The notes under the pieces: model-generated
Database searches by the model: none
Told to the model about the DNA's origin: nothing
What the model saw: the letters and a program-made list of their open reading frames with translations, nothing else
Shown here: one piece after another, positions 3,383 through 59,449 of the stretch
How the letters are laid out: every line of letters begins with the position of its first letter
How positions within the stretch are numbered: position 1 is the first letter of the stretch
Source: a virus
Taxonomy: Duplodnaviria > Caudoviricetes
Direction: 5' to 3' (one strand)
Virus record (IMG/VR): IMGVR_UViG_3300020202_000084
Location: 1-59,449 of that record
DNA: 59,449 nt
Position numbers and translations under genes: made by a program

Positions 3383-4037
3383 AAAAGTATTCATCATCAA
3401 TAGCGACGAAGCTACTGATAAGATGTTCCTGAGCATGAAGTGGGAGATAGTGAGCAACCCTACTCAGGCAGACATATTCCAGTTCACTGGCAGTGGTAAC
3501 AGCGATGTTGATCCTGCGCTTTATAATGAGCTGCAACATAAAGCCACTTTCACCGATCCTGGTAGAGACAAGCAGGAAGCCATCTATTACAAGATTGCTA
3601 AGCAGCGTGGCATCCCAATGGCTGGCATCTGCCGGGGTGCTCAGTTCCTTTGCGTCATGAATGGCGGTTGGTGTTGGCAGCATGTCAACAACCACGACAA
3701 CAAAGAGCACTACGTCACTGACTGGGATACAGGGGAGATCTACCTAGCCAACTCAGTGCATCATCAGATGATGCGGCTCCCTCGCAACAGGGCCACCATC
3801 CTTGCTACAGCTGGTGAAGCCACTTGGAAGGAATGGGTGAATAGCAGGGGTAATGAATGCACATTTACCTGCAATCCCAAGCATGTGGCCGATCCGGAGG
3901 TTGTCTTATTTAAGGACACCAAATGTCTGTGTGTGCAGTATCATCCTGAATATTCAGGCTGGAGTGCCTTAGTGTCTCGGTATTTTAACCTGATTGAGCA
4001 ACATCTATTCTCTAAGGAAGAATCATGTGCGGCATAG
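3372..4037 (+). CDS. class I glutamine amidotransferase / peptidase C26 (gamma-glutamyl hydrolase-like)
   Basis: GICRGAQ nucleophile elbow, NSVHHQ, QYHPE triad. Confidence 0.9.
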   Translation: MPAKKVFIINSDEATDKMFLSMKWEIVSNPTQADIFQFTGSGNSDVDPALYNELQHKATFTDPGRDKQEAIYYKIAKQRGIPMAGICRGAQFLCVMNGGWCWQHVNNHDNKEHYVTDWDTGEIYLANSVHHQMMRLPRNRATILATAGEATWKEWVNSRGNECTFTCNPKHVADPEVVLFKDTKCLCVQYHPEYSGWSALVSRYFNLIEQHLFSKEESCAA

Positions 4038-5236
4038 TCGGAGTGCTGGGTAAGATTGGAAAGTCTAGGCTCAGCATGTTTGAGGATATGCTGACGATGG
4101 ATGCAGTGCGGGGGAATGATAGCACTGGAGTGGCTGTCATTAATAAAGAAGATGTTTGGTGGGGCAAGGATGTTGTGCTGCCCAACGGCATCTTTGATTG
4201 GCAGGACTACAAGGATGCCAAGAAGGCCAAGCCCTTTTGCCTGATCGGACACAACAGAGCTGCTACTCGTGGCGCTATTAAGTCCGATAATGCTCATCCG
4301 TTTCAGCACGGACACATTACTCTTGTCCATAACGGCACGTTAGATGCAGCTTGGCGTCTTCCTAATTACTGGAAGTTTGGCACGGATAGTGAAGCTATCG
4401 CCTATGCTATTAGCCAACACGGGATTGAGACGGTGTGGCCTGTCATTGACGGTGCTGCTACCTTGGTATTCTGGGATGACAAAGAGAAATCCCTGAATGT
4501 CATCAGTAACAATAAGAGACCGTTCTTTATGCAGCCATTCCCCGGTTCAACCGGGATTGTGTGGTCTTCTGAGAGATGGACCTTGCTCACCGCCGCTGCA
4601 AGGACAGGAGTGGTGCTGGATAAAACAGAAGAAATATTCACCACTAAGTCAGATGTCTTATATACCTTTCTGTATGATCCCGATACAGACAAACTAAAGT
4701 ATCGGGAGAAGAAGCTGGAGCCTTATAAGGTAGGTAATAGTATCCCTGGATATCAGGCTCATGTTCCTGCATCTTATAAAAAAAAGAAAAAGAAAAGGGC
4801 GAAAAGTGCTACTGCGGATATTATACCGTTCAAGAGTGCGAGAGCATCTGCGGAGGTGTTTGGTAGTGCAGAGTGTTTTGCTGAGTGGCAGCAGCGTCAG
4901 CTAGATAAGGTGCAACCTAAGGACAACGGGACGGACGCGGACTTAGACACCCGCGCTGTGCCCTTTCGCGGTCCATACAAACAAACCGAGAAACCTACTC
5001 GAACGGCTGAAGAGTTTTTTCGGCTATTTGATTTGACAGAACTAAACCCTAAGAGCTGCACTCCAGAGTGGTTTATGGCTGCCTATCCCAATTGCTTTGG
5101 CTGTGACGGTAGCATGGACTATTCAGATTATTTCACTGCAAAGATTATGAGTTCTACTGCTGCTCTATGCAGCGATTGCCAGTGCGATATTTGGGTTACA
5201 TCCGGTATCGACCCTAATAACATCCGACAACACTGA
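4025..5236 (+). CDS. class II (Ntn) glutamine amidotransferase
   Basis: MCGIVG N-terminal Cys, RGNDSTG, GHNRAAT, NAHPF, HNGTL, TDSE. Confidence 0.92.
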   Translation: MCGIVGVLGKIGKSRLSMFEDMLTMDAVRGNDSTGVAVINKEDVWWGKDVVLPNGIFDWQDYKDAKKAKPFCLIGHNRAATRGAIKSDNAHPFQHGHITLVHNGTLDAAWRLPNYWKFGTDSEAIAYAISQHGIETVWPVIDGAATLVFWDDKEKSLNVISNNKRPFFMQPFPGSTGIVWSSERWTLLTAAARTGVVLDKTEEIFTTKSDVLYTFLYDPDTDKLKYREKKLEPYKVGNSIPGYQAHVPASYKKKKKKRAKSATADIIPFKSARASAEVFGSAECFAEWQQRQLDKVQPKDNGTDADLDTRAVPFRGPYKQTEKPTRTAEEFFRLFDLTELNPKSCTPEWFMAAYPNCFGCDGSMDYSDYFTAKIMSSTAALCSDCQCDIWVTSGIDPNNIRQH

Positions 5237-49360: not shown

Positions 49361-49514
49361 ATAAATTGGACTGGGGAGAATAAATTGGACTACGCTAAGT
49401 GCTTGACACTGCAGGAGAGGGAAATTCCGCCCCTGGGCACCTTACTACCCAGTAACGTATTGAACCACCGACACTTTTTAGGCGTTGGACTTTTTTAAGG
49501 AGAGCAGTTGGACT
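49361..49514. mobile_element. putative attP (core 49424-49441 resembling a tRNA-Phe 3' end; arm and IHF-like sites)
   Basis: ATTCCGCCCCTGGGCACC = T-loop/acceptor end of a tRNA; TTGGACT repeats at 49361, 49380, 49484, 49507; TAANNNNTTGA at 49396 and 49453; adjacent to int. Confidence 0.75.
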
Positions 49515-50539
49515 ATCTTACTGCTTCCCGATTGTGCAAGCTTGCTACGGTTCGCCTTTCGGGTGTAGACTCCAGCTTGCTTAGGAGAGGCCCAGCCGAA
49601 CAGAGACATAAGCTCTTGCTCGGTGCAGCCAGCCTCAGCTGCCTCGCAAGCAGCCGCCTTTCGCAACCCGTGGCAGGAACAATGCGGAAGCCCAGCCTCT
49701 ACACATCGATCCTTGAACCAATTGCCAAAGCCGTTAGACGTGAACGGCTCATTGAACGCAGTGACAAGATAAATCATCTCCCCGGTAGGGCACTTATCGA
49801 TAGCTTCCTGAAGGGGTGGGATGATTGGAACGAAGCGCTCAGTTCTGGTGCGCTTCTTGCCTCGGCCCTTCCAAGCAACGTAGTGGAAAGCGCCATCCTT
49901 CACCATCTGCCGCCCAAGTCGGACAACATCAGAACGCCTGCCGCCCCCATACATCAGGAGCATTAACGCGAGATATGGCTTGGTGCCGAGAGGGTGGCGT
50001 TGTATGAACAACGCTATTTCTTCTGGCGTCCACGTATGGAACCCATCGGGGTTATCGGCACTAAGGTAGGCTACTTCAGCAGCGGGGTTAGTCGAAACAT
50101 GCTTAGCTTCCTTCCCCCATTTAAACACCTGCCGCAAAGCCTTCACTACAGAGTTACCAGCTTCAGCGCCGCCATGAGACCACTTGTCCCGAATAGCCAT
50201 CACCCAGCCGGAGTCAATACTCTTAAACGGCTTGGAGCCATGCGTCTGACAGAGCCGATCTAGTATCTTCTTTCGGACTGTCTGGGTCTGCTTAGAGAGC
50301 TCTCTCGTGAACGCAGCACTATCCATGTAGGCTAGGCAGAGCCACCTCAGGGTCCCTTCGGTTTCTTCCTGCCGGGGCTGGGGATGGGCTGCTGCCTTAG
50401 CCATCGACAACTCTTCAAAGAATGAAGGGTGGTCGGGGGAGGGGAGCTTTATCTTCTTGCAGCCGGGAGCACGATAATACCAGCGGACGACTCCGTAACG
50501 ATCCACGTCTTTAATGACGTATTTGACCTTCAGGTCCAT
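49478..50539 (-). CDS. int: tyrosine integrase
   Basis: R (GGRRSD), HGLRK, FGW, Y (VYTR); N-terminal arm-binding DRYG..R.YYR; alternative TTG start at 50557. Confidence 0.93.
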   Translation of the reverse strand: MDLKVKYVIKDVDRYGVVRWYYRAPGCKKIKLPSPDHPSFFEELSMAKAAAHPQPRQEETEGTLRWLCLAYMDSAAFTRELSKQTQTVRKKILDRLCQTHGSKPFKSIDSGWVMAIRDKWSHGGAEAGNSVVKALRQVFKWGKEAKHVSTNPAAEVAYLSADNPDGFHTWTPEEIALFIQRHPLGTKPYLALMLLMYGGGRRSDVVRLGRQMVKDGAFHYVAWKGRGKKRTRTERFVPIIPPLQEAIDKCPTGEMIYLVTAFNEPFTSNGFGNWFKDRCVEAGLPHCSCHGLRKAAACEAAEAGCTEQELMSLFGWASPKQAGVYTRKANRSKLAQSGSSKIVQLLSLKKSNA

Positions 50540-50571
50540 ACCGCTAATCGTCCCCAAACCGCGAATCCCTT

Positions 50572-51348: not shown

Positions 51349-51520
51349 CTAGTTGACGGATGATATCGGCATCCATCTCTCTACCCCAGCGCTCTAGCTT
51401 TTCCTTGTGAGCTTCAAAGAGCTTCTGTCGATATATCTTCTCGAAATCTAACTGAGCATTCTCTTGGAGTATCCGCTCTAGTAGCTTCTCATTACCAGTA
51501 ACGAAGACAGTATAAGCCAT
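51323..51520 (-). CDS. hypothetical protein (first late-arm gene)
   Basis: SD AAGGA then ATG. Confidence 0.55.
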   Translation of the reverse strand: MAYTVFVTGNEKLLERILQENAQLDFEKIYRQKLFEAHKEKLERWGREMDADIIRQLDEASNDRR

Positions 51521-51660
51521 AATATCCTTAGAGACTCCCCCCTCCCCCATAGAAAGCTTCTAGAAGCGCTCTATAGTGTTCCGATATATCTTCTATCTAT
51601 CTGCTAACAAAGAACAGAAGAAACCCCCAAAAAGGGGAAAAGAAGAAAGAAACTGTTTAC

Positions 51661-51695
51661 ATATAGATTAAGACTAAAAGTAGGTGGTTTGTGAC
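51661..51695 (-). promoter_or_regulatory. phage-sigma (late) promoter
   Basis: GTCACA-N12-TTAGTCTTA-ATCTATAT heading the whole - strand arm; AT-rich UP tract. Confidence 0.7.
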
Positions 51696-51751
51696 AAAGA
51701 ATTTTAAATAATTTTAAATTATTTTTAATTCCGAATACCATTAGTGTTATT

Positions 51752-51984
51752 TATCAATTACTTAGAAGAGTCCAACTTTAGTAGAAATTTTTAGAAAAAG
51801 TCTGTAGAGCTAGCAATAACGCATGGAGCGCTATTTGTCCCCCCCGTAGTCCTCCTGTAGCGCGCTAGGTAGTCGCCTGGCAGTTTTCCATAATGCATAT
51901 TATGCGTCCGGGAATAGCGTTTGATTTCAATATGTTAGCACACACCTAGTCCTATTAGCATTCTCTAGCGTTATCAATGACTTA
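51752..51984. other. probable genome terminus/packaging region with IHF-like boxes
   Basis: WATCAANNNNTTR matches at 51752 and 51972 (near match 51925), C7 run at 51839, palindrome 51889-51904; between the divergent arms. Confidence 0.45.
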
Positions 51985-52218
51985 CTAGGTGCTACTAGAG
52001 TGCTACTTAGTCTGCTCGCGCGTATGCATGTAGGGAGGAGTAGGGGGCTATTTAGTCGCTACTCCTCTGGTAACACTCTGGTAGCTCTCTGAAGCCTTCC
52101 GAGCATCATCTAGGCAGGTATGAGCGTAAATAGGGCTTGACATGTCCTAACTAGCTCAGGCAATAATGCAGCGTTTAACGAAACTGATACGCTCTAACCC
52201 AGGAAGGAAAACTGCCAA

Positions 52219-52722
52219 ATGACTACCTACGCTAACCTAGCAGCTGCCCACAGTGTGCTTCATAGCGCCATGATGGACCTTACCAATCACATCAAGGCAG
52301 AGACCAATCCAGAGGCTATCGCGGTCCTGTCAGCGGCACATACGGCACTCTATAAGGCTTCCGGGCGCGTGTTCGATACAGCTAGCAGAAGGAATAGAAC
52401 TATGACTAAGGATCAAATCGAGCGGACGGTAGAACGCAGAATGAACGCTTTAGACTATCAGCTGATAACCAAGAACACTCTGACACAGGCTCAATACGAT
52501 ATTGAGGTAAAGAAACTGAATGACTGGGCAGAATTGCAGTATGCCAAGCTGAACAAGCCCGCCAAGCGCTATCAGGTAGAAAATACGACTAGTGTTTTCG
52601 ATTTCTCCAACCACTATTCAGTGATAGACACTTGGACTAAACAGTGTAAAGGCGACTACGCTACCGAGTCACAGGCCCAAGCTAGAGCCCGCACTCTCAA
52701 TAGCAGGAACGGAGGGAAATAG
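52219..52722 (+). CDS. early hypothetical protein
   Basis: SD AGGAAGG; first + strand gene. Confidence 0.65.
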   Translation: MTTYANLAAAHSVLHSAMMDLTNHIKAETNPEAIAVLSAAHTALYKASGRVFDTASRRNRTMTKDQIERTVERRMNALDYQLITKNTLTQAQYDIEVKKLNDWAELQYAKLNKPAKRYQVENTTSVFDFSNHYSVIDTWTKQCKGDYATESQAQARARTLNSRNGGK

Positions 52723-52724
52723 AC

Positions 52725-52961
52725 ATGGTATGGAAAACACTCCGCTATGACGCCATAGAGGCTTTCAAGCATTCATGGCCTTGTCATGGCCTACCGGATA
52801 ACTTGCACTCCCTATCATGCGACTTTGCCAGCAATGGTGATTTAGTCGATATAGAGGCATATGACAGTGACGGTAGACTGCTAGACACTCACGACTTTGA
52901 CGGACCAGCCCTGTTAGCTCTTACCCAAGACTGTCAGGCTAGTGGCGATACATCCGACTAG
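52725..52961 (+). CDS. early hypothetical protein
   Basis: SD GGAGG; F..SWPC..L, NGDLVD motif. Confidence 0.7.
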   Translation: MVWKTLRYDAIEAFKHSWPCHGLPDNLHSLSCDFASNGDLVDIEAYDSDGRLLDTHDFDGPALLALTQDCQASGDTSD

Positions 52962-52983
52962 CACTCTCCCAACACCCGCCAGC

Positions 52984-53017
52984 AAGCCCCTTAGAGCGCT
53001 CTGAGGGGCTTTCTTAT
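52984..53017 (+). terminator. terminator (repeat copy 1)
   Basis: AAGCCCCTTAGA-GCGC-TCTGAGGGGCTT plus U-tract. Confidence 0.8.
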
Positions 53018-53294
53018 TGCCCTTAGCGAGCGTAGCTAGCGCTTTCGGTCTAGTCCAAACGCAGTACAACCCGTACGTGTACAGCTGCCCTGTGTGACTC
53101 GCAGAAAGAGTCAACCTGTTCTTAAGCAATACTGCCTATACCTGTGGATAGGTGACAGCACGTCACAGCAGATAGGCCGGAAGATATAGGTAAGAGTTGC
53201 CTAGTAATAGCGTGACACTAAGTCACGACTAAGACTATGACTTATCTAGACTAATTTAGTCGTGACATGTCGTAACAGAATGTGGATAAGTCAA

Positions 53295-53332
53295 TTGACA
53301 GGGAGACTGAATAGGAGTAATGGTTAACCTGT
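53295..53332 (+). promoter_or_regulatory. sigma-70 promoter with ACAGG-N25-CCTGT operator-like flanks
   Basis: TTGACA-17-TAATGG; same architecture as 58746-58783. Confidence 0.65.
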
Positions 53333-53349
53333 GACATGGCAGTGTCACA

Positions 53350-53620
53350 TAGAGGCTAGAGCCTCACAGGGTGGCGGGTTCCCATAACTCGCAAAAAGAC
53401 GGGGACCAAAGGACTGGCAGGTCCGATGATCCCCTAGCCAAGCAACCGGGACACTTTTGGGAAAGCTTCCGTCACAAGGCTGGCAAGGGTCTAAACCTTT
53501 TCAGTCTAAAAGACAAGAGGGAATCAGGCTCAGTCATGCGGGAATAATCGCCCGTAATGCTGAAGCCTGTTTTCATTCATAAGGGGCAAACAATAGCGTC
53601 CTAGTTCTTGGCCTGTATGA
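53350..53620 (+). ncRNA. candidate structured RNA/leader
   Basis: ORF-free with consecutive stems (GCGGGTT/AACTCGC, GGGGA/TCCCC, CAGGCT/AGCCTG, closing ACAGG/CCTGT). Confidence 0.45.
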
Positions 53621-53632
53621 AAGGCTAAGGCT

Positions 53633-54448
53633 ATGACTATCCGTTCCTCTGAGACCTTTAGGTCTTCTCTGTCTTGCATGTTCACAGTGCAAGGCTTCAA
53701 TTACGATTGGATTGAGGCTAACAACCATCCTAGCCATACGTTCCCTAGGCTTGAACTACCTTCAAGCGGCTTTGAAAGTCTTCCTAGGAGCTATCAAGAG
53801 GCTTTGAAGCAAGAAGCCTATAAGGCGCTAGCGGCTAAAATGGCCACTAGTGCAGCTGAGATTGCCATTATGGCAAAGCAGCACAGGCTCGCATTGTCGG
53901 CTGAAGCTACCTTTGTGCGAGACACTGCGAACAGGCCCGACACTATCCCCAGCAACATGGAAGCAATGCGGGTTAGTCACTGGATTGAACCCAAGCGGGT
54001 GTTCATTCCGTTGCCTGCTAAGGCCGATGCTTCTCTGAAAGAGCTAGTCAAGGCTAACAGCAAGCCTGACGGGTTCATGATGGACCTACCCGGCACTCCA
54101 CAAGGCAAGGTGCTGGGCACTCTCAGCACAGAGGCTTGGCGCAAGGGGGAGGTGAATAGGATTGCTATTCACAACCCTGAGCCTCTACCGCCCTATCAGG
54201 TTCCCCAGCGTCCTATGACGGCCAGCGAACAGCAGGTTGCGGAATGGCTGGCACAGCCGGGACGCACTGTCACAACGTCTAAGCAGTCCAGCCGCCTTGC
54301 CAAGCTTATGGCGAAATTCTGGGAGCATGGGGACGGGAAGGACGGATTACAGCCTGTCATGGCGTCTAATGCGGCGCACAGGGCATTGGGCCGGATTGCC
54401 AAGGCGGAACGCTATAACGCTACTCCGCTTGCCGTTGCGGCACAGTAG
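53633..54448 (+). CDS. early hypothetical protein
   Basis: 271-aa ORF. Confidence 0.65.
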   Translation: MTIRSSETFRSSLSCMFTVQGFNYDWIEANNHPSHTFPRLELPSSGFESLPRSYQEALKQEAYKALAAKMATSAAEIAIMAKQHRLALSAEATFVRDTANRPDTIPSNMEAMRVSHWIEPKRVFIPLPAKADASLKELVKANSKPDGFMMDLPGTPQGKVLGTLSTEAWRKGEVNRIAIHNPEPLPPYQVPQRPMTASEQQVAEWLAQPGRTVTTSKQSSRLAKLMAKFWEHGDGKDGLQPVMASNAAHRALGRIAKAERYNATPLAVAAQ

Positions 54449-54552
54449 GGGGAGGGGCAAGCTATGAAACGGATTGCCCTAACCCTGTTCTGTGGTGTCG
54501 TTCTATGGGGAGGTATTTGCCTAGGATGGTATCTGGCCTTTGGGGGGACACT

Positions 54553-54765
54553 ATGACCGTCCTACAGGCTGACATATCGCTCTATTGGAAGTGTTCCAAC
54601 GTCCTGAGGGGACACAGCTACACAGTAGCTCCCACGGTTGCTACTGACTTGCTGGACACTATCGCCAGAAACAACCCTAACACCCGCCTTGCCAAGCTTT
54701 CCCTGAGCAATGGCGAAAGCATGTGGAAGGAAGGGCAGGACGCTAAGGTTATCTCTATCGCCTAG
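54553..54765 (+). CDS. early hypothetical protein
   Basis: SD GGGGGA then ATG; followed by a terminator. Confidence 0.55.
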   Translation: MTVLQADISLYWKCSNVLRGHSYTVAPTVATDLLDTIARNNPNTRLAKLSLSNGESMWKEGQDAKVISIA

Positions 54766-54783
54766 CGACTAAGCTTGACTAAC

Positions 54784-54821
54784 GGGGACTAGCGGGTTTA
54801 TAGCCTGCTAGTCCCTTTTCT
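54784..54821 (+). terminator. rho-independent terminator
   Basis: GGGACTAGCGGGT/GCCTGCTAGTCCC plus TTTTCT. Confidence 0.75.
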
Positions 54822-54834
54822 ATGGAGGTAGCTA

Positions 54835-55057
54835 ATGGCTAGCAAATTCCAACACAGACACTGTAAAGCGATTGCCGAAATTCTCATGAATAATACGCCA
54901 CTAGCTCAAGACGGCGAAACAGCTATGCGGCAATGGGCGTATACTGTGTAGGGAAATGGCGGGAATGTTCTTGAGGGATAATCCGCGGTTTAATCGTGAT
55001 AGGTTCATAGCGGCTTGCAATGGTGACTATCAGAACGGCAGGGACAAGCCACGCTAG
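54835..55057 (+). pseudogene. frameshifted small phage gene (DNPRF..RF..AC family)
   Basis: SD GGAGG; frame stops at TAG 54949; conserved-looking C-terminus FLRDNPRFNRDRFIAAC continues in the +1 frame. Confidence 0.6.
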
Positions 55058-55087
55058 CGCCCCCTATCCCTTTCCTCCCTAACCCCC

Positions 55088-55125
55088 AAAGCCCCTTAGA
55101 GCGTTTCTGAGGGGCTTTTTCTTTT
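55088..55125 (+). terminator. terminator (repeat copy 2)
   Basis: Near-identical to the hairpin at 52984-53012. Confidence 0.8.
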
Positions 55126-55441
55126 CCCCTAGTCCAATACGTCCAAATAGCTCAAAAGCCGCTGGCGGGCTTCTATTGCGGATTGGCAGCTATTCCGACT
55201 TAGCAGCCTAGAGCTAGTCACAGCTGAAAACCTAGAATTATTCTAATTCTAAGTAAGAGGTTCTTACATTAACAGCTTGAACTATTCCAATAACCTGGCT
55301 AATCCATTGATATTACGTAGTTATTTTACTCTGGCTAATCGCAGTTAGTTTTGAGATACTAGTGACTGTTCGGAAGGCGGGTAGCAGAGAGTAAGGGGCT
55401 AGCCTTCCAGCCCTTCCTACCGTTTATCGGAGGTGACAGAG

Positions 55442-55684
55442 ATGAAACTTGGCAAGCGCGAACGTCAAGCTAGGCGCGAATTAATGCGTGCTAGTGAGGC
55501 AATCCGGGCGCGTATTGCTAGGGCAGAAAACCCTGGCATTGACGCGGCGGCATGTTCTGGGCGCGTATCTAGTCCGCTGGCCGCTTTGTGGCCTAGCCAA
55601 TCGGCAAAGCCTAGAGTTCCAGCCGGATGGACTACTGAGCAGGCTAGAAAAGCCGCTCATTTGGGCGGCAAGGTTTACGCCTAG
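55442..55684 (+). CDS. early hypothetical basic protein
   Basis: SD GGAGG. Confidence 0.55.
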   Translation: MKLGKRERQARRELMRASEAIRARIARAENPGIDAAACSGRVSSPLAALWPSQSAKPRVPAGWTTEQARKAAHLGGKVYA

Positions 55685-55714
55685 GCCCATTGCCCCATTG
55701 CGGCAATGTGAGAC

Positions 55715-56135
55715 TTAGCTGTTAGTGCGGGATTAGTGGCAGATTTTCCCGCACTAGCAGATACGTCTATCGTATCCCTTTAGATTTGTCCCGTGGCAGC
55801 GGGCATAGATACCTGTGTTTTGGGCGGATAGCTCATTACATGGCCTATTGGGTGTCGCTGTAATAAATACAGGCAGGCAGCCTGTATAATCCGGGGGAGG
55901 CTGATTAACGACGGCTAGGCTTATTGCTTAGGAAGAATTGTTAATCCCCTCTAAATGGTAGGTCGGGTGAGTTGTCTTACAAACAACTCTAGCCGAGAAA
56001 CCCACGCAAACCAGCAACCGCCTTTAGTGGCGCGTAGCTGAGGGTTGGACCGGCTCATAGCTAGGGCCTTGATTGGTTCCTAGCTGAATATGCCACTAAT
56101 ACCTCTGGCTATGGTTGCCTAGTAGCGGCAAACTA
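55715..56135 (+). ncRNA. candidate structured RNA (~420 nt)
   Basis: ORF-free with many stems; loop ATTAGTGGCA (55732) complementary to TGCCACTAAT (56091). Confidence 0.5.
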
Positions 56136-56187
56136 ATTGACACATATTTTCCCTAGGTTTTGACTAGTGGCGCGGAAAGGATGCGCC

Positions 56188-56397
56188 ATGCTCAGTCCAG
56201 ATAAACTGCGAATTTACCGCAGTCACGGTGAACACTACCAGGCTTTGCAGCAAGAGTTGGCCAAAGCCAAGGCTCACATCATGGAATCCGAAATCGAAGC
56301 TGGGTTGCAAGTTGTAACTCAGACTGCACGGGGTTATCTCAAGCGTACAACAATCGCCTTGATTGGCCGTATGGCTATCAGGGACTACAGCCGATAA
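56188..56397 (+). CDS. small early protein enclosed by a 25-bp inverted repeat
   Basis: SD AAGGA; IR 56149-56173/56408-56432. Confidence 0.6.
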   Translation: MLSPDKLRIYRSHGEHYQALQQELAKAKAHIMESEIEAGLQVVTQTARGYLKRTTIALIGRMAIRDYSR

Positions 56398-56487
56398 ACT
56401 TTCAATGGCGCCACTAATCTAAACCTAGGGAACAGCAAGCTAATTGCAATCTGCTAGCCCTTCTCACAGCTAGAAGGAATAGCAGAA

Positions 56488-57057
56488 ATGGAACGTGCGA
56501 TTTTTGACAAAAAGCGGGAATCTTTCCGCAAGTCCATCACTCGGACCAAGGATATGGCCATTGAGTTGGCCGTGGCCGCTCTTGCGCAGTTTAAGGCGCA
56601 TGGCGACCTGTCCTATGTCCAAGACTTCTATGGCGACCTGCGTGGTGCGGGCAAGAACGTGATTCGTTCGGCTCCGTTCCTCGCCTGGCTCACCACCTTT
56701 GCTCCGGTGGAGTTGAAGGAGAACAAGTTCGTGAAGGATCACGACTTGGCCGCCAAGCTCAAGTGGGACGAGAAGGACGCCGAAGGCAACTATCCGGCGC
56801 GTGAGGCGTTGTTCGCCAAGGCGCAGGAGAAGTCGTTCTTCGATTTCGCCCCTGAGCAGGTGGCGCAGAACTTCAAGGCCGGTGATTTGGTCGAAGCGGT
56901 CGAGAAGCTCATCAAGCGTTACGAGAACAGCAAGCATTTCGTGGCTGCCGATGAGGAAGCCAAGAACACGCTTGTTCGGCTGAAGGACGTGGCCAAGACG
57001 CTGCGTGCTCCGGCTGCCAACAGCAATGGCTCCCTGCCGATTGAGCAGGCTGCCTAG
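56488..57057 (+). CDS. conserved-type early protein enclosed by a 25-bp inverted repeat
   Basis: Strong GC3 codon bias, HGD...R..F.AW...F.P pattern; IR 56436-56460/57177-57201. Confidence 0.8.
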   Translation: MERAIFDKKRESFRKSITRTKDMAIELAVAALAQFKAHGDLSYVQDFYGDLRGAGKNVIRSAPFLAWLTTFAPVELKENKFVKDHDLAAKLKWDEKDAEGNYPAREALFAKAQEKSFFDFAPEQVAQNFKAGDLVEAVEKLIKRYENSKHFVAADEEAKNTLVRLKDVAKTLRAPAANSNGSLPIEQAA

Positions 57058-57219
57058 TTACCCTCACCAGGCATCTTAGGGTCGCGCCCTGAGCGACGAG
57101 TGAAATCGTGACAAGACGGGAGAGACCGTCACATCCATTGCACCCGAAAGGGGACTGGGCTATCCGGCCCCTAATTGGGCTAGCAGATTGCACTTGGCTT
57201 GTAGATGATGGCTTTCTCA

Positions 57220-58170
57220 TTAAGGGCTGCTAAACAGCCTTATAAGCCAAGACCCTGATAGGAAATAGAACATGGGCAGCTACCGGCCCGTCAAGGCGAC
57301 TGTAACGGGTAGCACGGCCTAGCTGTAATGGAGCAGCTTATGCGAAGTAACTAATCCCTGATTTGTTATAGCTCAGATAGTTGTAAATTGAATCGCTGCT
57401 TTTGTTTGTGAGGCACCCGAGAGGAAACTTTGGACACTCTCGGGTGTTCTCTTGGTCATTCTCGCCAACACAGCTGGTAGCGTTTGCGTAACTCCACAAA
57501 CGCAAGTAACACAGATAGGGACTATAGCCGTTTCCAGTGGAAACCGATTCTGGGTAATAGCCCAAATGCTAGCTTCTGTGGCTGTGTTGGCGTGAGTGAC
57601 TAGCTATGCAACGGCAGTGAACCCGTTTGAGTCGGAAGCTGACCTAGATAGAAAGCGCTCTAGTCACTCTTCCTGTTAGGGAACGAATGCCGATGGGACT
57701 ACATGGCAAAAGAAGTCTCATCACCCTTAGTCGTTCCCTAGCTTTTGTGCCCGATGGTCCCACACCCAGAGTGTGACGAATGGACTGCTTTTATGTAAAG
57801 CTAGGCGATCTAGAGCGCACCTAGCCATCGGGCTCTTATTATGCGCAGGTGCCAGTGAGGCTGGCTTAAATCCAGATGACGCCGATGGAGCCTGCGAGGA
57901 TGACAACACAGGGTATTTACTCCTGCACACTTGGCTAGCGCGCCTCGTGTTCAACTGGTAATACGTCGTGGTATCCAGAAAAGCCGGTTATACTCGTGCC
58001 GGATACGTTAGGTGTGCAGGCGTAAGCATCCACTAGGGTGGCTGAGCGGGAAATGCCATCTAAATCATGCCTATTAACAACCGGCATAGCCCTAGTGTCG
58101 CGGTGCCCTCCGAGCCAAATGGGGTTGAGGGTTAAATGACTGATCTGATTCGCTAGTCAGCCGCAAGTCT
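57220..58170 (+). ncRNA. large ornate ncRNA candidate (GOLLD-like)
   Basis: ~950 nt without a credible ORF, successive multistem junctions and pseudoknot-type complementarity, directly 5' of a tRNA. Confidence 0.6.
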
Positions 58171-58171
58171 T

Positions 58172-58247
58172 TGGGATGTAGCTCAGCAGGTAGAGCAGCA
58201 GACTGTTACTCTGTAGGTCCTAGGTTCGAGCCCTAGCTTCCCAGCCA
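58172..58247 (+). tRNA. tRNA-Asn (GTT)
   Basis: Cloverleaf: TGGGATG/CTTCCCA, D-arm GCTC/GAGC, GCAGA-CTGTTAC-TCTGT, TTCGA T-loop, G73, encoded CCA. Confidence 0.95.
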
Positions 58248-58250
58248 AAT

Positions 58251-58284
58251 AAAAAGGGGCACCTGTTAGGGCACCCCTCTTGTT
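58251..58284. terminator. probable bidirectional terminator
   Basis: A-tract, AGGGG...CCCCT stem, T-tract between the convergent tRNA and wHTH gene. Confidence 0.6.
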
Positions 58285-58364
58285 AGCTGTTCCTCAGAAT
58301 GACGCCAGAGGATTTAATGGGAGCAGGCGTATGCCTGTAGAAAAGGTGATAAAACTCCCAGCAG

Positions 58365-58721
58365 CTATTCCACCACTGCCACCACCATGTCATTGGTGAC
58401 AGCAAGCTCCCCGATCTTCATGGGCTTGCCCTGAGGTTTTCCCTCATTGTCCATGATGATGAGACGCTTGCCCGTCAGAGCCTCGTAGGAGCCCGTAGGG
58501 ACCTTCTTCTCCGGGAAAGGCTGGATAGCCATTGCTTGGTCCGCAAGCACCAGACGGCCACCAAAACCGCGTCCCGGCACCACTACGCCGCTCTTGAGGG
58601 CGGTCTTCTTAATCAGGTCCCATTCCTTGTCCTTCACCCCGAGAGCCTGCTTCAGATCGGGGTTGTTGGCCGAGCCTCCGAGTTCCTTCAGCTTGGCAAC
58701 CAAGTTCTCAACAGTAGCCAT
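58365..58721 (-). CDS. winged-helix DNA-binding protein, candidate repressor
   Basis: Strong SD AGGAGGT, own sigma-70 promoter, only credible - strand gene in the early arm; LGGSA.N..LK.ALG...GRG.GG. Confidence 0.75.
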
Positions 58722-58745
58722 TATTCACCTCCTATGTGTTGGCTT

Positions 58746-58783
58746 ACAGGTTGCCATATAGGCTAGTCGGGAGTCCCTGTCAA
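58746..58783 (-). promoter_or_regulatory. sigma-70 promoter of the wHTH gene
   Basis: TTGACA-17-TATATG, ACAGG-N25-CCTGT. Confidence 0.7.
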
Positions 58784-58798
58784 CTAGGAGTTTTAAAG

Positions 58799-58969
58799 AT
58801 GTTGTATTGGGCTTTGCTTTTCTTAGTTATTGCCATTGTTTCAGGTATCTTTGGATTTGGGGGTATCTCTGTGACTGTCGCTAATATCGCCCAAATTATG
58901 TTTTTTGTTTTCTTGGTCTTATTCATTGTCAGTCTGTTCTTCGGCTGGCGTGCAGGCAATTTGGATTAA
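58799..58969 (+). CDS. DUF1328/UPF0391 (YtjA-like) small membrane protein
   Basis: ML.WAL.FL.IAI...IFGFGGI....A.IA.I.F..F..LF..SL. Confidence 0.85.
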
Positions 58970-58973
58970 AATT

Positions 58974-59222
58974 ATGACCAAATCTATTTCCATCCTCTCC
59001 CGTGCTGAACTTGCCACCCGTGCGGCTAAGTATGCCGATTCAGTTAAGTGGAGAGGTGGCCCTAATTTCATCTTCTGTTCCCGCTTTGGCTCCAAGAAGA
59101 GCAATAGCGGTGGTGGAGGTAGGGGACGTGCCCATTATTCCTGTGGCACCCCTAGGGCCTACATAGGGGACATCCGTAAGGAACTCCATGCCAGCTGGGT
59201 AGCTAGGTCTGGGAGGCACTGA
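58974..59222 (+). CDS. hypothetical basic protein
   Basis: ORF coupled to the next gene. Confidence 0.5.
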   Translation: MTKSISILSRAELATRAAKYADSVKWRGGPNFIFCSRFGSKKSNSGGGGRGRAHYSCGTPRAYIGDIRKELHASWVARSGRH

Positions 59223-59449
59223 TGTTTGTCGTGTGGTTCATAGAGCAAAACAGTTGGCTGAAGTATAGAGAATACTCCAAACTAGATAACGCTTTAGATG
59301 CTGCGAAATTGGACGCACTCTATGGCACGTCAGATCGAGTCATTGTTACTAATTCTAAAACTACGCCTCCAGATTTTCTTAACGCTGGCGAGTTGTTGGT
59401 TAAGTTCTGTGCAGAGGAGATGAGAGATGCTGCGAGACAACAAAGGGAA
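59222..59449 (+). CDS. hypothetical protein spanning the circular junction (continues 128-172)
   Basis: SD GGAGG, open frame through the overlap to TAA at 170-172. Confidence 0.6.
   Translation, partial: MFVVWFIEQNSWLKYREYSKLDNALDAAKLDALYGTSDRVIVTNSKTTPPDFLNAGELLVKFCAEEMRDAARQQRE
59323..59449. repeat. 127-bp terminal direct repeat, copy 2
   Basis: Identical to 1-127. Confidence 0.9.

What the first reader, a model, noticed from the sequence alone, without database searches (positions are those of the whole stretch)
56149..57201. Consecutive ORFs each looped out by a 25-bp long-range stem
Seen: 56149-56173 pairs with 56408-56432 (23/25) around ORF 56188; three bases later 56436-56460 pairs with 57177-57201 (one G-U, one mismatch) around ORF 56488 and its structured 3' UTR. 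Established: this is the architecture of RNase III processing stalks in rRNA operons, whereas T7 early sites are local hairpins. Inference: an rRNA-operon-like transcript cut into stabilised (possibly circularised) mRNAs, ncRNAs and tRNA. Invertible or MITE-like DNA ends are the alternative.
Basis: partly seen in the sequence, partly recalled or inferred. Interest (0 to 1): 0.72.

Follow-up and report, generated by a model that had tools for sequence, protein, structure and literature searches.

The report
RNA stalks enclosing early phage genes
In a soil phage, two neighbouring early genes are each bracketed by a long double-stranded RNA stem, and the stem around one of them is kept (with completely different sequence) throughout a whole clade of uncultured phages, which suggests these mRNAs are cut out of a longer transcript much as ribosomal RNAs are.

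Summary
56149-56173 pairs with 56408-56432 around ORF 56188. Three bases later 56436-56460 pairs with 57177-57201 around ORF 56488 (phrog_1448 family). The window is a complete 59.4-kb podovirus-like genome from soil. I tested 28 loci carrying a phrog_1448 homolog. In 14 (13 of 27 distinct sequences) a 22-44-bp stem encloses the gene and beats 100 of 100 shuffles. Four of these were found only after the test was fixed. Arm sequences are unrelated between lineages. The 13 distinct stalks hold 53 G·U pairs and only 2 A·C mismatches, so pairing is selected in the sense RNA, not in DNA. On the protein tree the stalk-bearing sequences form one group (support 100/99); 12 cultured T7-like phages lack the stalk. 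Best reading (0.6): these are RNase III-type processing stalks that excise single-gene mRNAs with paired ends from a transcript that also carries structured RNA and tRNA-Asn. Cleavage itself could not be tested, because no RNA data were found. Stalk 1 encloses an orphan gene, cannot be tested by comparison, and is only moderately significant alone. DNA inversion and MITE ends are rejected. Nothing supports circular RNA.

The parts
55433..55684 (+). Small ORF (83 aa, 'KLGKRERQ' motif), the first gene of the putative transcription unit. Homologous small ORFs lie upstream of the stalk in L006 (985-1200) and L009 (1692-1970), and L020 (2184-2243) matches the start of this ORF.
   Evidence: codon-usage score +0.147 in frame
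55685..56148 (+). 464-nt ORF-poor leader with a local hairpin (55711-55732 / 55747-55768). Relatives have a 380-440-nt leader in the same position, with no detectable sequence similarity.
56149..56173 (+). Stalk 1, 5' arm
   Evidence: score 50 on +, 55 on -
56188..56397 (+). ORF enclosed by stalk 1: 69 aa, an orphan with no homolog, but with coding-type codon usage
   Evidence: only itself among 5.8 billion clusters; +0.21 in frame, -0.31 and -0.32 out of frame
56408..56432 (+). Stalk 1, 3' arm
56435..56460 (+). Stalk 2, 5' arm. It ends 27 nt before the ATG, leaving the Shine-Dalgarno sequence unpaired.
56488..57057 (+). Gene enclosed by stalk 2: 189 aa, phrog_1448 family, function unknown. 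It is the first early gene in 10 of the 12 cultured phages tested (the T7-like ones). Codon bias is strong.
57058..57176 (+). 119-nt 3' UTR inside the stalk-2 loop
57177..57202 (+). Stalk 2, 3' arm
57452..57603 (+). 25-bp stem (57452-57476 / 57579-57603) with a 102-nt loop: 19 WC + 5 G.U + 1 mismatch as + RNA, 6 mismatches as - RNA
57911..58031 (+). 25-nt stem (57911-57935 / 58007-58031) with a 71-nt loop. Score 43 on the + strand; not among the - strand helices scoring >=40.
58172..58247 (+). tRNA-Asn (GTT) on the same strand, followed by a terminator-like hairpin at about 58250-58285
51866..52229 (+). Third long-range stem (51866-51889 / 52206-52229, 316-nt loop) at the start of the + strand early region. 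Unlike stalks 1 and 2, its 3' arm covers the Shine-Dalgarno sequence and ATG of ORF 52219.
   Evidence: z -3.9

Best explanation
The stems are double-stranded RNA 'stalks' that form in the sense transcript of the phage's early region. Each is made by pairing a sequence just upstream of a cistron's ribosome-binding site with a sequence just downstream of its stop codon. At 22-44 bp and nearly perfect, they are of the length and regularity that bacterial RNase III cuts.

The most likely mechanism is as follows. Host RNA polymerase makes a roughly 3-kb transcript (about 55.2-58.3 kb) carrying a small ORF, a leader, stalk 1 (orphan ORF), stalk 2 (phrog_1448 gene), about 1 kb of structured RNA with two more long stems, and tRNA-Asn. 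Host RNase III then cuts both strands of each stalk. This releases single-gene mRNAs whose 5' and 3' ends stay paired in the remaining half-stem, which shields them from end-dependent decay and insulates them from their neighbours.

Shown: the pairing exists, is selected, acts in the sense RNA, and leaves the ribosome-binding site free. Inferred: that RNase III is the enzyme, that both strands are cut, that the effect is stabilising, and that all parts belong to one transcript.
For: (1) Uniform test: best local helix between the 300 nt before the homolog and the 200 nt after its stop, with 100 dinucleotide shuffles each. The enclosing stem beats all shuffles in 10 of 16 loci, 0 of 2, 4 of 4 loci fetched after the test was fixed, and 0 of 6. 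That is 14 of 28 rows, or 13 of 27 distinct sequences.
(2) Arm sequences are unrelated between lineages: blastn aligns only coding parts across lineages. In 220 unrelated cross-locus pairings the score averages 32.1 (sd 5.0, max 51), against 48-66 for a locus's own arms.
(3) Strand asymmetry: 53 G.U pairs and 2 A.C mismatches in the 13 distinct stalks. Sense scores higher than antisense in 13 of 14 rows.
(4) On the protein tree, stalk presence maps to one side of a single branch with 100/99 support (13 vs 14 rows). Pairing was therefore kept through end branches of 0.03-1.7 changes per site.
(5) Geometry: the 5' arm ends 17-40 nt before the start codon chosen (8 loci) and about 21-25 nt before the upstream ATG in L015 and L020. 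The 3' arm starts -2 to +126 nt after the stop. The RBS is therefore not sequestered.
(6) Length: every stalk is >=22 bp, the idealised E. coli RNase III substrate (PMC3867540, Fig. 5 legend, passage seen). RNase III cutting large stems that flank 16S and 23S rRNA is the norm (PMC6582327, abstract in the listing).
(7) Loci without the stalk have a 22-26-bp stem with a 43-79-nt loop beside the gene. This suggests dsRNA sites next to this gene are general and the enclosing form is one variant.
(8) The MFE and centroid folds contain the stalks.
Against: No RNA ends, no cleavage data and no host are known, so RNase III involvement is inferred only from helix length and regularity. The phage has no RNase III or dsRBD gene of its own, so everything depends on an unidentified host enzyme.

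Stalk 1 and the 51866/52206 stem score slightly better as antisense RNA (55 vs 50 and 50 vs 45). They have no comparative support, and a helix scoring 50 arises in about 0.15 per shuffled genome. L015 and L017 do not exceed the best unrelated cross-pair (49 and 48 vs 51), and L015 scores 49 sense vs 51 antisense.

All stalk-bearing sequences form one clade, so the origin is a single event. The G.U bias would also fit pairing in single-stranded + strand DNA. All 12 cultured relatives lack the stalk, so it is not needed for the gene to work. A single transcript spanning all parts is not demonstrated. No boxA-like element that might help long-range folding was found.
Confidence: 0.6

Rival explanations
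1. Closed-loop mRNA without cleavage. The stalk itself is the function. By holding the 5' and 3' ends of the cistron together it could insulate the gene from flanking RNA, hide ends or entry sites from RNases, or bring the stop codon next to the ribosome-binding site so that terminating ribosomes re-initiate on the same mRNA.
For: All the conservation, covariation and strand evidence fits this equally well. The RBS is left free, and in most loci the stop codon lies only -2 to +24 nt from the 3' arm, so start and stop sit at the base of the stalk. The enclosed gene has unusually strong codon bias (0.456, against 0.279 +/- 0.079 for long genes), as expected for a highly translated mRNA.
Against: From established knowledge of the enzyme, near-perfect helices of 24-41 bp should be cut by bacterial RNase III unless antideterminant base pairs are present (PMC3867540, passages). 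A structure that must stay intact would be expected to be shorter or more interrupted. The stop-to-arm distance is 62-126 nt in the window, L021 and L031.
Confidence: 0.22
2. RNase III cutting the stalk is a negative control (retroregulation-like). Cleavage removes the protective 5' triphosphate and the 3' structures, which shortens the life of the early mRNA or limits expression of a protein that is harmful in excess.
For: The helix properties are the same as for the best explanation. The 51866/52206 stem covers the SD and ATG of ORF 52219, so at least one stem in this region is positioned to repress rather than to release.
Against: In stalks 1 and 2 and in the relatives, the arms avoid the RBS and the coding sequence. 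After a double cut, the ends of the mRNA would remain base-paired, which usually protects them. The strong codon bias of the enclosed gene argues for high expression.
Confidence: 0.08
3. DNA-level element: an invertible segment, terminal inverted repeats of a MITE-like or cassette-like mobile element, or a hairpin or cruciform formed in (single-stranded) DNA.
For: Inverted repeats flank discrete segments. A tyrosine integrase gene lies at 49478-50557. Stalk 1 encloses an orphan ORF that looks like an inserted module between the leader and stalk 2. G.T wobble is also tolerated in single-stranded DNA, so the strand bias alone does not exclude a + strand ssDNA hairpin.
Against: 53 G.U vs 2 A.C rules out selection on duplex-DNA symmetry. 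Arm sequences differ between I1, I2 and I3 and between loci, so there is no shared recombinase site. Each arm matches only its partner in the genome. One contig runs collinear through 51500-57484, and no strand-changing joint is listed in two DNA assemblies (weak, because contigs drop rare forms and may be the source data). The favoured strand is always the sense strand of the enclosed gene. Arms 520-780 nt apart are unlikely to meet in the DNA of a dsDNA podovirus.
Confidence: 0.03
4. Chance complementarity (relevant only to stalk 1 and the 51866/52206 stem).
For: Three of 20 whole-genome shuffles gave a helix scoring 51-53; stalk 1 scores 50 and the third stem 45. Neither has comparative support.
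Against: Three helices >=50 are observed against 0.15 expected, all within about 6 kb. Stalk 1 encloses an ORF exactly (14 nt and 10 nt margins) and abuts stalk 2. For stalk 2, chance is excluded by the comparative data.
Confidence: 0.05

Closest known systems
RNase III processing stalks of bacterial rRNA operons (stems flanking 16S and 23S rRNA)
   Same: Long-range pairing of the sequences flanking the RNA to be released. Helices of two or more turns. Consecutive stalks on one precursor, with a tRNA on the same transcript. Structure conserved while sequence varies.
   Different: The enclosed RNAs are protein-coding cistrons of 0.2-0.6 kb with a free ribosome-binding site, not stable RNAs. They lie in a phage early region. 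Cleavage is not demonstrated. No boxA-like antitermination element was found.
RNase III sites of the phage T7 early polycistronic mRNA (five processing signals)
   Same: Position in the early region of a T7-like podovirus genome, next to the first early gene. The presumed role is to cut a polycistronic early transcript into stable mRNAs. Stalk-less relatives have local 22-26-bp stems beside the same gene.
   Different: T7 sites are local hairpins between genes, often with an internal loop that gives single-strand cuts (recalled; general statement in PMC3867540). Here one helix is built from both flanks of the gene, so a single recognition event would define both ends of the mRNA.
Bacillus subtilis scRNA precursor processing by Bs-RNase III
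   Same: [quoted passage not shown]
   Different: The product is a non-coding RNA of 271 nt. It is a host gene and not part of a series.
5'UTR-3'UTR pairing in bacterial mRNAs (S. aureus icaR; hok-type fold-back inhibition)
   Same: The ends of an mRNA pair over a long distance. In icaR the duplex is an RNase III target (PMC3868564, title and abstract in the listing).
   Different: Those duplexes cover the Shine-Dalgarno region and repress translation. Stalks 1 and 2 and all 13 relatives' stalks leave it free. Only the 51866/52206 stem resembles the icaR type.

Membership tests
rRNA-operon-type RNase III processing stalk | Long-range helix formed by the two flanks of the excised RNA | tested here: met
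   arms lie just outside the cistron, 234-778 nt apart
rRNA-operon-type RNase III processing stalk | Helix of about 22 bp (two A-form turns) or more | tested here: met
   22-44 bp in all 14 positive rows; criterion from PMC3867540
rRNA-operon-type RNase III processing stalk | Pairing conserved through sequence change (covariation) | tested here: met
   Stalk 2. Stalk 1 cannot be tested (orphan ORF).
rRNA-operon-type RNase III processing stalk | Both strands cut by RNase III in vivo | not testable with these tools
   No RNA run holds the sequence; the host is unknown
rRNA-operon-type RNase III processing stalk | The enclosed product is a stable non-coding RNA (rRNA) | tested here: not met
   The enclosed segments are ORFs with coding-type codon usage; one belongs to a protein family of 280 clusters
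T7-type early-mRNA RNase III site | Lies between cistrons of the early region of a T7-like phage | tested here: inconclusive
   T7-type portal, PolA and primase-helicase. The homolog is the first gene after the early promoters in 10 of the 12 cultured phages tested. Timing of expression in this phage is inferred.
T7-type early-mRNA RNase III site | Local hairpin, often with an internal loop | tested here: not met
   Loops of 234 and 716 nt contain whole genes. The stems at 57452/57579 and 57911/58007 are closer to this type.
Invertible DNA segment (inverton) | Both orientations present in sequence data | tested here: inconclusive
   No strand-changing joint in two DNA assemblies; one collinear contig across 51500-57484. 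Contigs drop rare variants.
Invertible DNA segment (inverton) | Inverted repeats are recombinase sites: symmetric in DNA and similar between sites | tested here: not met
   53 G.U vs 2 A.C; arm sequences are unrelated between the stems and between loci
MITE / IS terminal inverted repeats | Several copies of the element or of its ends | tested here: not met
   Each arm matches only its own partner in the genome; no arm appears in a direct-repeat family within 55000-59449
Translation-blocking 5'-3' UTR pairing (icaR / hok fbi type) | The duplex covers the Shine-Dalgarno sequence or the start codon | tested here: not met
   Stalk 1 ends 14 nt and stalk 2 ends 27 nt before the ATG; relatives 17-40 nt. 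The feature is met only by the 51866/52206 stem.

The most novel reading that the evidence does not exclude
A clade of uncultured soil and water podoviruses handles its first early gene the way cells handle rRNA. The mRNA is transcribed inside a precursor together with other stalk-enclosed modules, structured RNAs and a tRNA. One dsRNA stalk built from both flanks defines both ends in a single RNase III event. The product is a 'closed-loop' bacterial mRNA whose paired ends both stabilise it and place the stop codon next to the start, so that ribosomes are recycled. Stalk-enclosed ORFs such as the orphan 56188 would then be portable expression cassettes that can be inserted into the precursor.
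Probability: 0.3. Interest if true: 0.75.

Novelty: new variant of a known kind. Interest (0 to 1): 0.62.

Why it matters
RNase III processing of phage early transcripts (T7) and of rRNA precursors are both textbook cases. A long-range stalk that encloses a protein-coding gene, conserved by covariation across a deep phage clade, did not turn up in five full-text searches.

If the stalks are cut as proposed, they would be a natural example of a self-contained mRNA 'insulator': one structural element sets both ends of an mRNA, independent of genomic context. This bears on how phages secure fast, strong expression of their first gene. It also bears on closed-loop mRNAs in bacteria, and on the design of processing cassettes for synthetic operons.

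The finding also flags phrog_1448 as worth studying. It is a widespread first early protein of T7-like phages, with a confident predicted structure and no match to any solved fold.

Tried and rejected
- RNA evidence: the look-up of sequencing runs listed no RNA holder, only two soil DNA runs that may be the source of the window. Expression and ends therefore could not be examined.
- Read laying on those two runs (contigs only) showed no inversion joints. It did show low-depth contigs from other sequences sharing 24-52-nt pieces of 57455-58414.
- Close relatives seen as proteins (P0002-P0007, about 50% identity, on contigs of 5-59 kb) could not be fetched as DNA. Both genome-contig scans found nothing, so no prophage and no host.
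- Alignments A3 and A4 were too diverse for pattern scans.
- RNA.duplexfold on long flanks over-extended the duplexes and timed out. I replaced it with a local-helix aligner.
- The first version of the helix test depended on my choice of start codon and missed L015 and L020. It was replaced by the start-independent version.
- Rfam: only tRNAs at gathering score. At E<=1 the early region gave only weak hits, including suhB/mmgR at 55052-55130 (E 0.11, below gathering), which overlaps a terminator-like hairpin.
- boxA-like motif: 18 matches vs 18.2 expected.
- No RNase III or dsRBD gene in the phage. The PF00940 RNA-polymerase search rang in no control genome, so it says nothing.
- Protein function: no Pfam hit. 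Foldseek against the PDB gave nothing at E<=0.001. VIA-align gave a best Z of 5.7, generic helical hairpins.
- tRNA-Asn synteny with Pseudomonas phages TL and PaP3: their tRNA lies next to the late genes, not next to the homolog.
- A formal count of structure pairs was dropped. MAFFT put L034's 5' arm out of register, and the remaining three sequences amount to a single comparison.
- CTAG enrichment in the early region (11.8 vs 3.6 per kb) has an observed/expected ratio near 1, so it only reflects low coding density.
- The search of earlier findings returned nothing for this genome.
- Supplementary files of papers were not consulted.
Full report
WHAT THE WINDOW IS
The window is a complete viral genome of 59,449 bp with direct terminal repeats. 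It is held at full length by two soil DNA runs, which may be its source. It encodes a T7-type head-tail connector, a family-A DNA polymerase, a primase-helicase and a tyrosine integrase. Its portal is only 22-28% identical to those of cultured podoviruses. Genes run on the + strand from 1 to about 27 kb and on the - strand from about 27 to 51.5 kb. An AT-rich zone at 51.54-51.84 kb is followed by an ORF-poor + strand region up to about 58.3 kb. The finding lies in that region.

THE OBSERVATION
- I1 (56149-56173 / 56408-56432) has 23 Watson-Crick pairs of 25.
- I2 (56436-56460 / 57177-57201) has 23 WC pairs, one G.U and one mismatch, and extends to 26 positions.
- Three bases separate the two stems.
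- ORF 56188-56397 fills the first loop. ORF 56488-57057 plus a 119-nt 3' UTR fills the second.
- Both stems appear in the MFE and the centroid fold of 56130-57220.

In a strand-specific census of ungapped helices with loops of 40-1600 nt, the five best + strand helices of the whole genome lie in 51.8-58.0 kb (scores 56, 50, 50, 45, 43). Nothing elsewhere on the + strand exceeds 42. Twenty dinucleotide shuffles of the genome gave on average 0.15 helices scoring >=50 (3 observed) and 0.45 scoring >=45 (4 observed). The best shuffle scores were 40-53. I2 is therefore clearly non-random. I1 taken alone is only moderately so.

COMPARATIVE TEST
The 189-aa protein in the second loop belongs to phrog_1448. 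It has six homologs at about 50% identity, and a profile finds 280 clusters at 50% identity. I could not fetch DNA for the closest homologs. More distant loci came from viral and metagenome contigs and from cultured phages.

I applied one test to every locus. It finds the best local helix (WC and G.U scored, small bulges allowed) between the 300 nt before the tblastn match and the 200 nt after the stop codon, and compares it with 100 dinucleotide shuffles of both flanks. An earlier version depended on my choice of start codon and missed two loci, so I replaced it.

Results:
- 10 of 16 loci beat all shuffles: window, L006, L009 and L015-L021.
- 0 of 2: Pseudomonas phages TL and PaP3.
- 4 of 4 loci fetched after the test was fixed: L031, L032, L033 and L034, where L032 and L033 are identical over the 1,100 nt compared.
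- 0 of 6 further cultured phages: Cd1, Babayka, RSJ5, RSB3, IPa-2 and BMB50.
- Overall 14 of 28 rows, or 13 of 27 distinct sequences. That is 14 of 16 uncultured rows and 0 of 12 cultured phages.
- The negatives score like their shuffles (20-99 of 100 shuffles as high), so the test does not fire by default.

In the relatives, the enclosing stalk is the highest-scoring + strand helix of the locus, or ties for highest. The one exception is a local hairpin in L017.

The arms are not conserved in sequence. blastn between loci aligns only coding parts across lineages; flanks align only within the close pairs L017/L018, L022/L023 and L010/L013. Pairing the upstream flank of one locus with the downstream flank of another unrelated locus gives a mean of 32.1 (sd 5.0, max 51, n = 220), against 48-66 for a locus's own flanks. 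Eight of the ten positives in that matrix exceed every cross-pair; L015 (49) and L017 (48) do not. L006, L017 and L018 share a short core, so their arms can be read in register. There, one position changes from G-C to A-U on both sides, and four positions differ on one side through G.U.

WHICH MOLECULE PAIRS
The 13 distinct stalks contain 53 G.U pairs (44, 9) and only 2 A.C mismatches. An A.C mismatch is what would be a G.U pair on the other strand. The sense strand scores higher than the antisense in 13 of 14 rows; the exception is L015, 49 vs 51. The loci were oriented by the enclosed gene, so the favoured strand is always the mRNA strand. This excludes selection on duplex DNA (inversion sites, transposon ends). 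It fits the transcript. A + strand single-stranded DNA hairpin is formally not excluded, but arms 520-780 nt apart make it unlikely in a dsDNA podovirus.

Within the window, I2 and the stems at 57452/57579 (5 G.U, against 6 mismatches on the other strand) and 57911/58007 favour the + strand. I1 and the 51866/52206 stem are each better by one wobble on the - strand, which is uninformative.

PHYLOGENY
A maximum-likelihood tree of the 27 proteins puts all 13 stalk-bearing sequences on one side of a branch with 100/99 support and all 14 stalk-less ones on the other. None of 500 label shuffles needed as few changes. Because relatives share labels, this counts as one origin (or one loss). The informative point is that pairing has been kept along end branches of 0.03-1.7 changes per site while the arm sequences were replaced.

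GEOMETRY AND MECHANISM
The 5' arm ends 17-40 nt before the start codon chosen (8 loci) and about 21-25 nt before the upstream ATG in L015 and L020. The 3' arm begins -2 to +126 nt after the stop, and in most loci 8-24 nt after it. The ribosome-binding site is therefore left free, and the stalk is not a translational block.

All stalks are 22-44 bp, and two are perfect apart from G.U pairs (L031, L034). The idealised E. coli RNase III substrate is 22 bp, two helical turns. Regular helices allow both strands to be cut, while loops, bulges or mismatches restrict cutting to one strand (PMC3867540, passages seen). RNase III cutting large stems that flank 16S and 23S rRNA is the rule in bacteria (PMC6582327, abstract in the listing). 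T7's early precursor carries five RNase III signals (PMC3867540).

From this I infer that host RNase III cuts the stalks and releases single-gene mRNAs whose ends remain paired. The phage has no RNase III or dsRBD gene of its own. I could not test cleavage, because no RNA run holds the sequence.

Loci without the enclosing stalk have a 22-26-bp stem with a 43-79-nt loop beside the gene. This suggests that dsRNA sites next to this gene are general and that the enclosing stalk is a derived arrangement.

THE TRANSCRIPTION UNIT (inferred)
- A terminator-like hairpin at 55088-55118 is followed by an AT-rich stretch.
- Then comes ORF 55433, whose homologs precede the stalk in L006, L009 and L020.
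- Next is a 464-nt leader, stalk 1 and stalk 2.
- About 970 nt of ORF-poor sequence follows, with the two further long stems.
- The unit ends with tRNA-Asn at 58172-58247 and a terminator-like hairpin near 58250-58285.

A same-strand tRNA also follows the stalk in L017 (Tyr) and L020 (Trp).

STALK 1 AND THE THIRD STEM
ORF 56188 has no homolog among 5.8 billion protein clusters. It does have coding-type codon usage: +0.21 in frame against -0.31 and -0.32 out of frame, while ORF-poor windows reach at most 0.016. Relatives go straight from leader to stalk, so the 284-nt stalk-1 module looks like an insertion. Its function as a stalk rests on analogy and placement only.

The 51866/52206 stem differs in kind. 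Its 3' arm covers the Shine-Dalgarno sequence and ATG of ORF 52219, as in repressing 5'-3' pairings.

THE ENCLOSED PROTEIN
AlphaFold gives a confident, mainly helical model (pLDDT 94.5). It has no solved-structure match. It does match uncharacterised proteins of many podoviruses. In 10 of the 12 cultured phages tested (the T7-like ones) it is the first annotated gene after the early promoters. Its function is unknown.

VERDICT
The DNA-level alternatives are rejected. RNase III cleavage remains an inference, and nothing supports circular RNA.

I rate this a new variant of a known kind: an rRNA-style processing stalk applied to a protein-coding early phage gene and conserved across an uncultured clade. 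Five full-text searches found no description of such an arrangement. This covers only the open-access library searched.

Noticed in passing
window 1-51799 vs 51800-58300: GTAC is almost absent outside the early region (3 sites in 51.8 kb, observed/expected 0.03), while 4 sites lie in the 6.5-kb early region. This looks like avoidance of a GTAC-specific restriction system that is relaxed, or not yet purged, in the early region.
   Followed up: partly
window 52984-53011 and 55088-55118: Two terminator-like hairpins share nearly the same stem sequence. They look like a repeated terminator module closing successive small transcription units in the early region.
   Followed up: no
window 51866-52229: The 3' arm of a 24-bp long-range stem covers the Shine-Dalgarno sequence and ATG of ORF 52219. 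A TTGACA box at 52138 inside the loop could give a shorter transcript that lacks the 5' arm, which would amount to promoter-dependent translational control. The promoter reading is my own inspection; the scan tool did not list it.
   Followed up: partly
L020 3484-3620; L006 2260-2387: The outer half of the stalk's 3' arm can alternatively pair with a downstream sequence (L020 3500-3525 / 3595-3620, ending at the first base of tRNA-Trp; L006 2274-2291 / 2370-2387). The two helices are mutually exclusive, which suggests an ordered folding or processing cascade.
   Followed up: partly
window 57455-57484, 57683-57734, 57864-57887, 58251-58414: Low-depth contigs in one soil run share only these short pieces of the ORF-poor region and then diverge. 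Related phages in the same sample may therefore conserve small elements of the structured RNA zone.
   Followed up: no
window 56488-57057: The phrog_1448 protein has a confident AlphaFold model (pLDDT 94.5) with no match to any solved structure (best Z 5.7). It is the first early gene of many T7-like phages of Caulobacter, Brevundimonas, Ralstonia, Rhizobium and Pseudomonas. In Cd1 and Babayka a gp0.7-like protein kinase gene lies about 0.6 kb downstream.
   Followed up: partly
L010 443-567; L013 2244-2365; L022 571-665; L027 43-189: Relatives that lack the enclosing stalk carry a 22-40-nt near-perfect stem with a 43-79-nt loop next to the gene. These may be local RNase III sites or excised small RNAs.
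   Followed up: no
window 55052-55130: Weak Rfam hit to the alphaproteobacterial sRNA family suhB/mmgR (24.5 bits against a gathering score of 41; E 0.11). It overlaps the terminator-like hairpin and is probably driven by that hairpin.
   Followed up: no
window 58736-58969: A small membrane protein of the DUF1328 family (E 3.4e-13) is encoded just after the unit. It lies next to a 118-aa ORF on the - strand (58365-58721) that converges on the tRNA terminator.
   Followed up: no
window 4025-5236: A class-II glutamine amidotransferase domain protein lies among the + strand middle genes. I did not examine it further.
   Followed up: no
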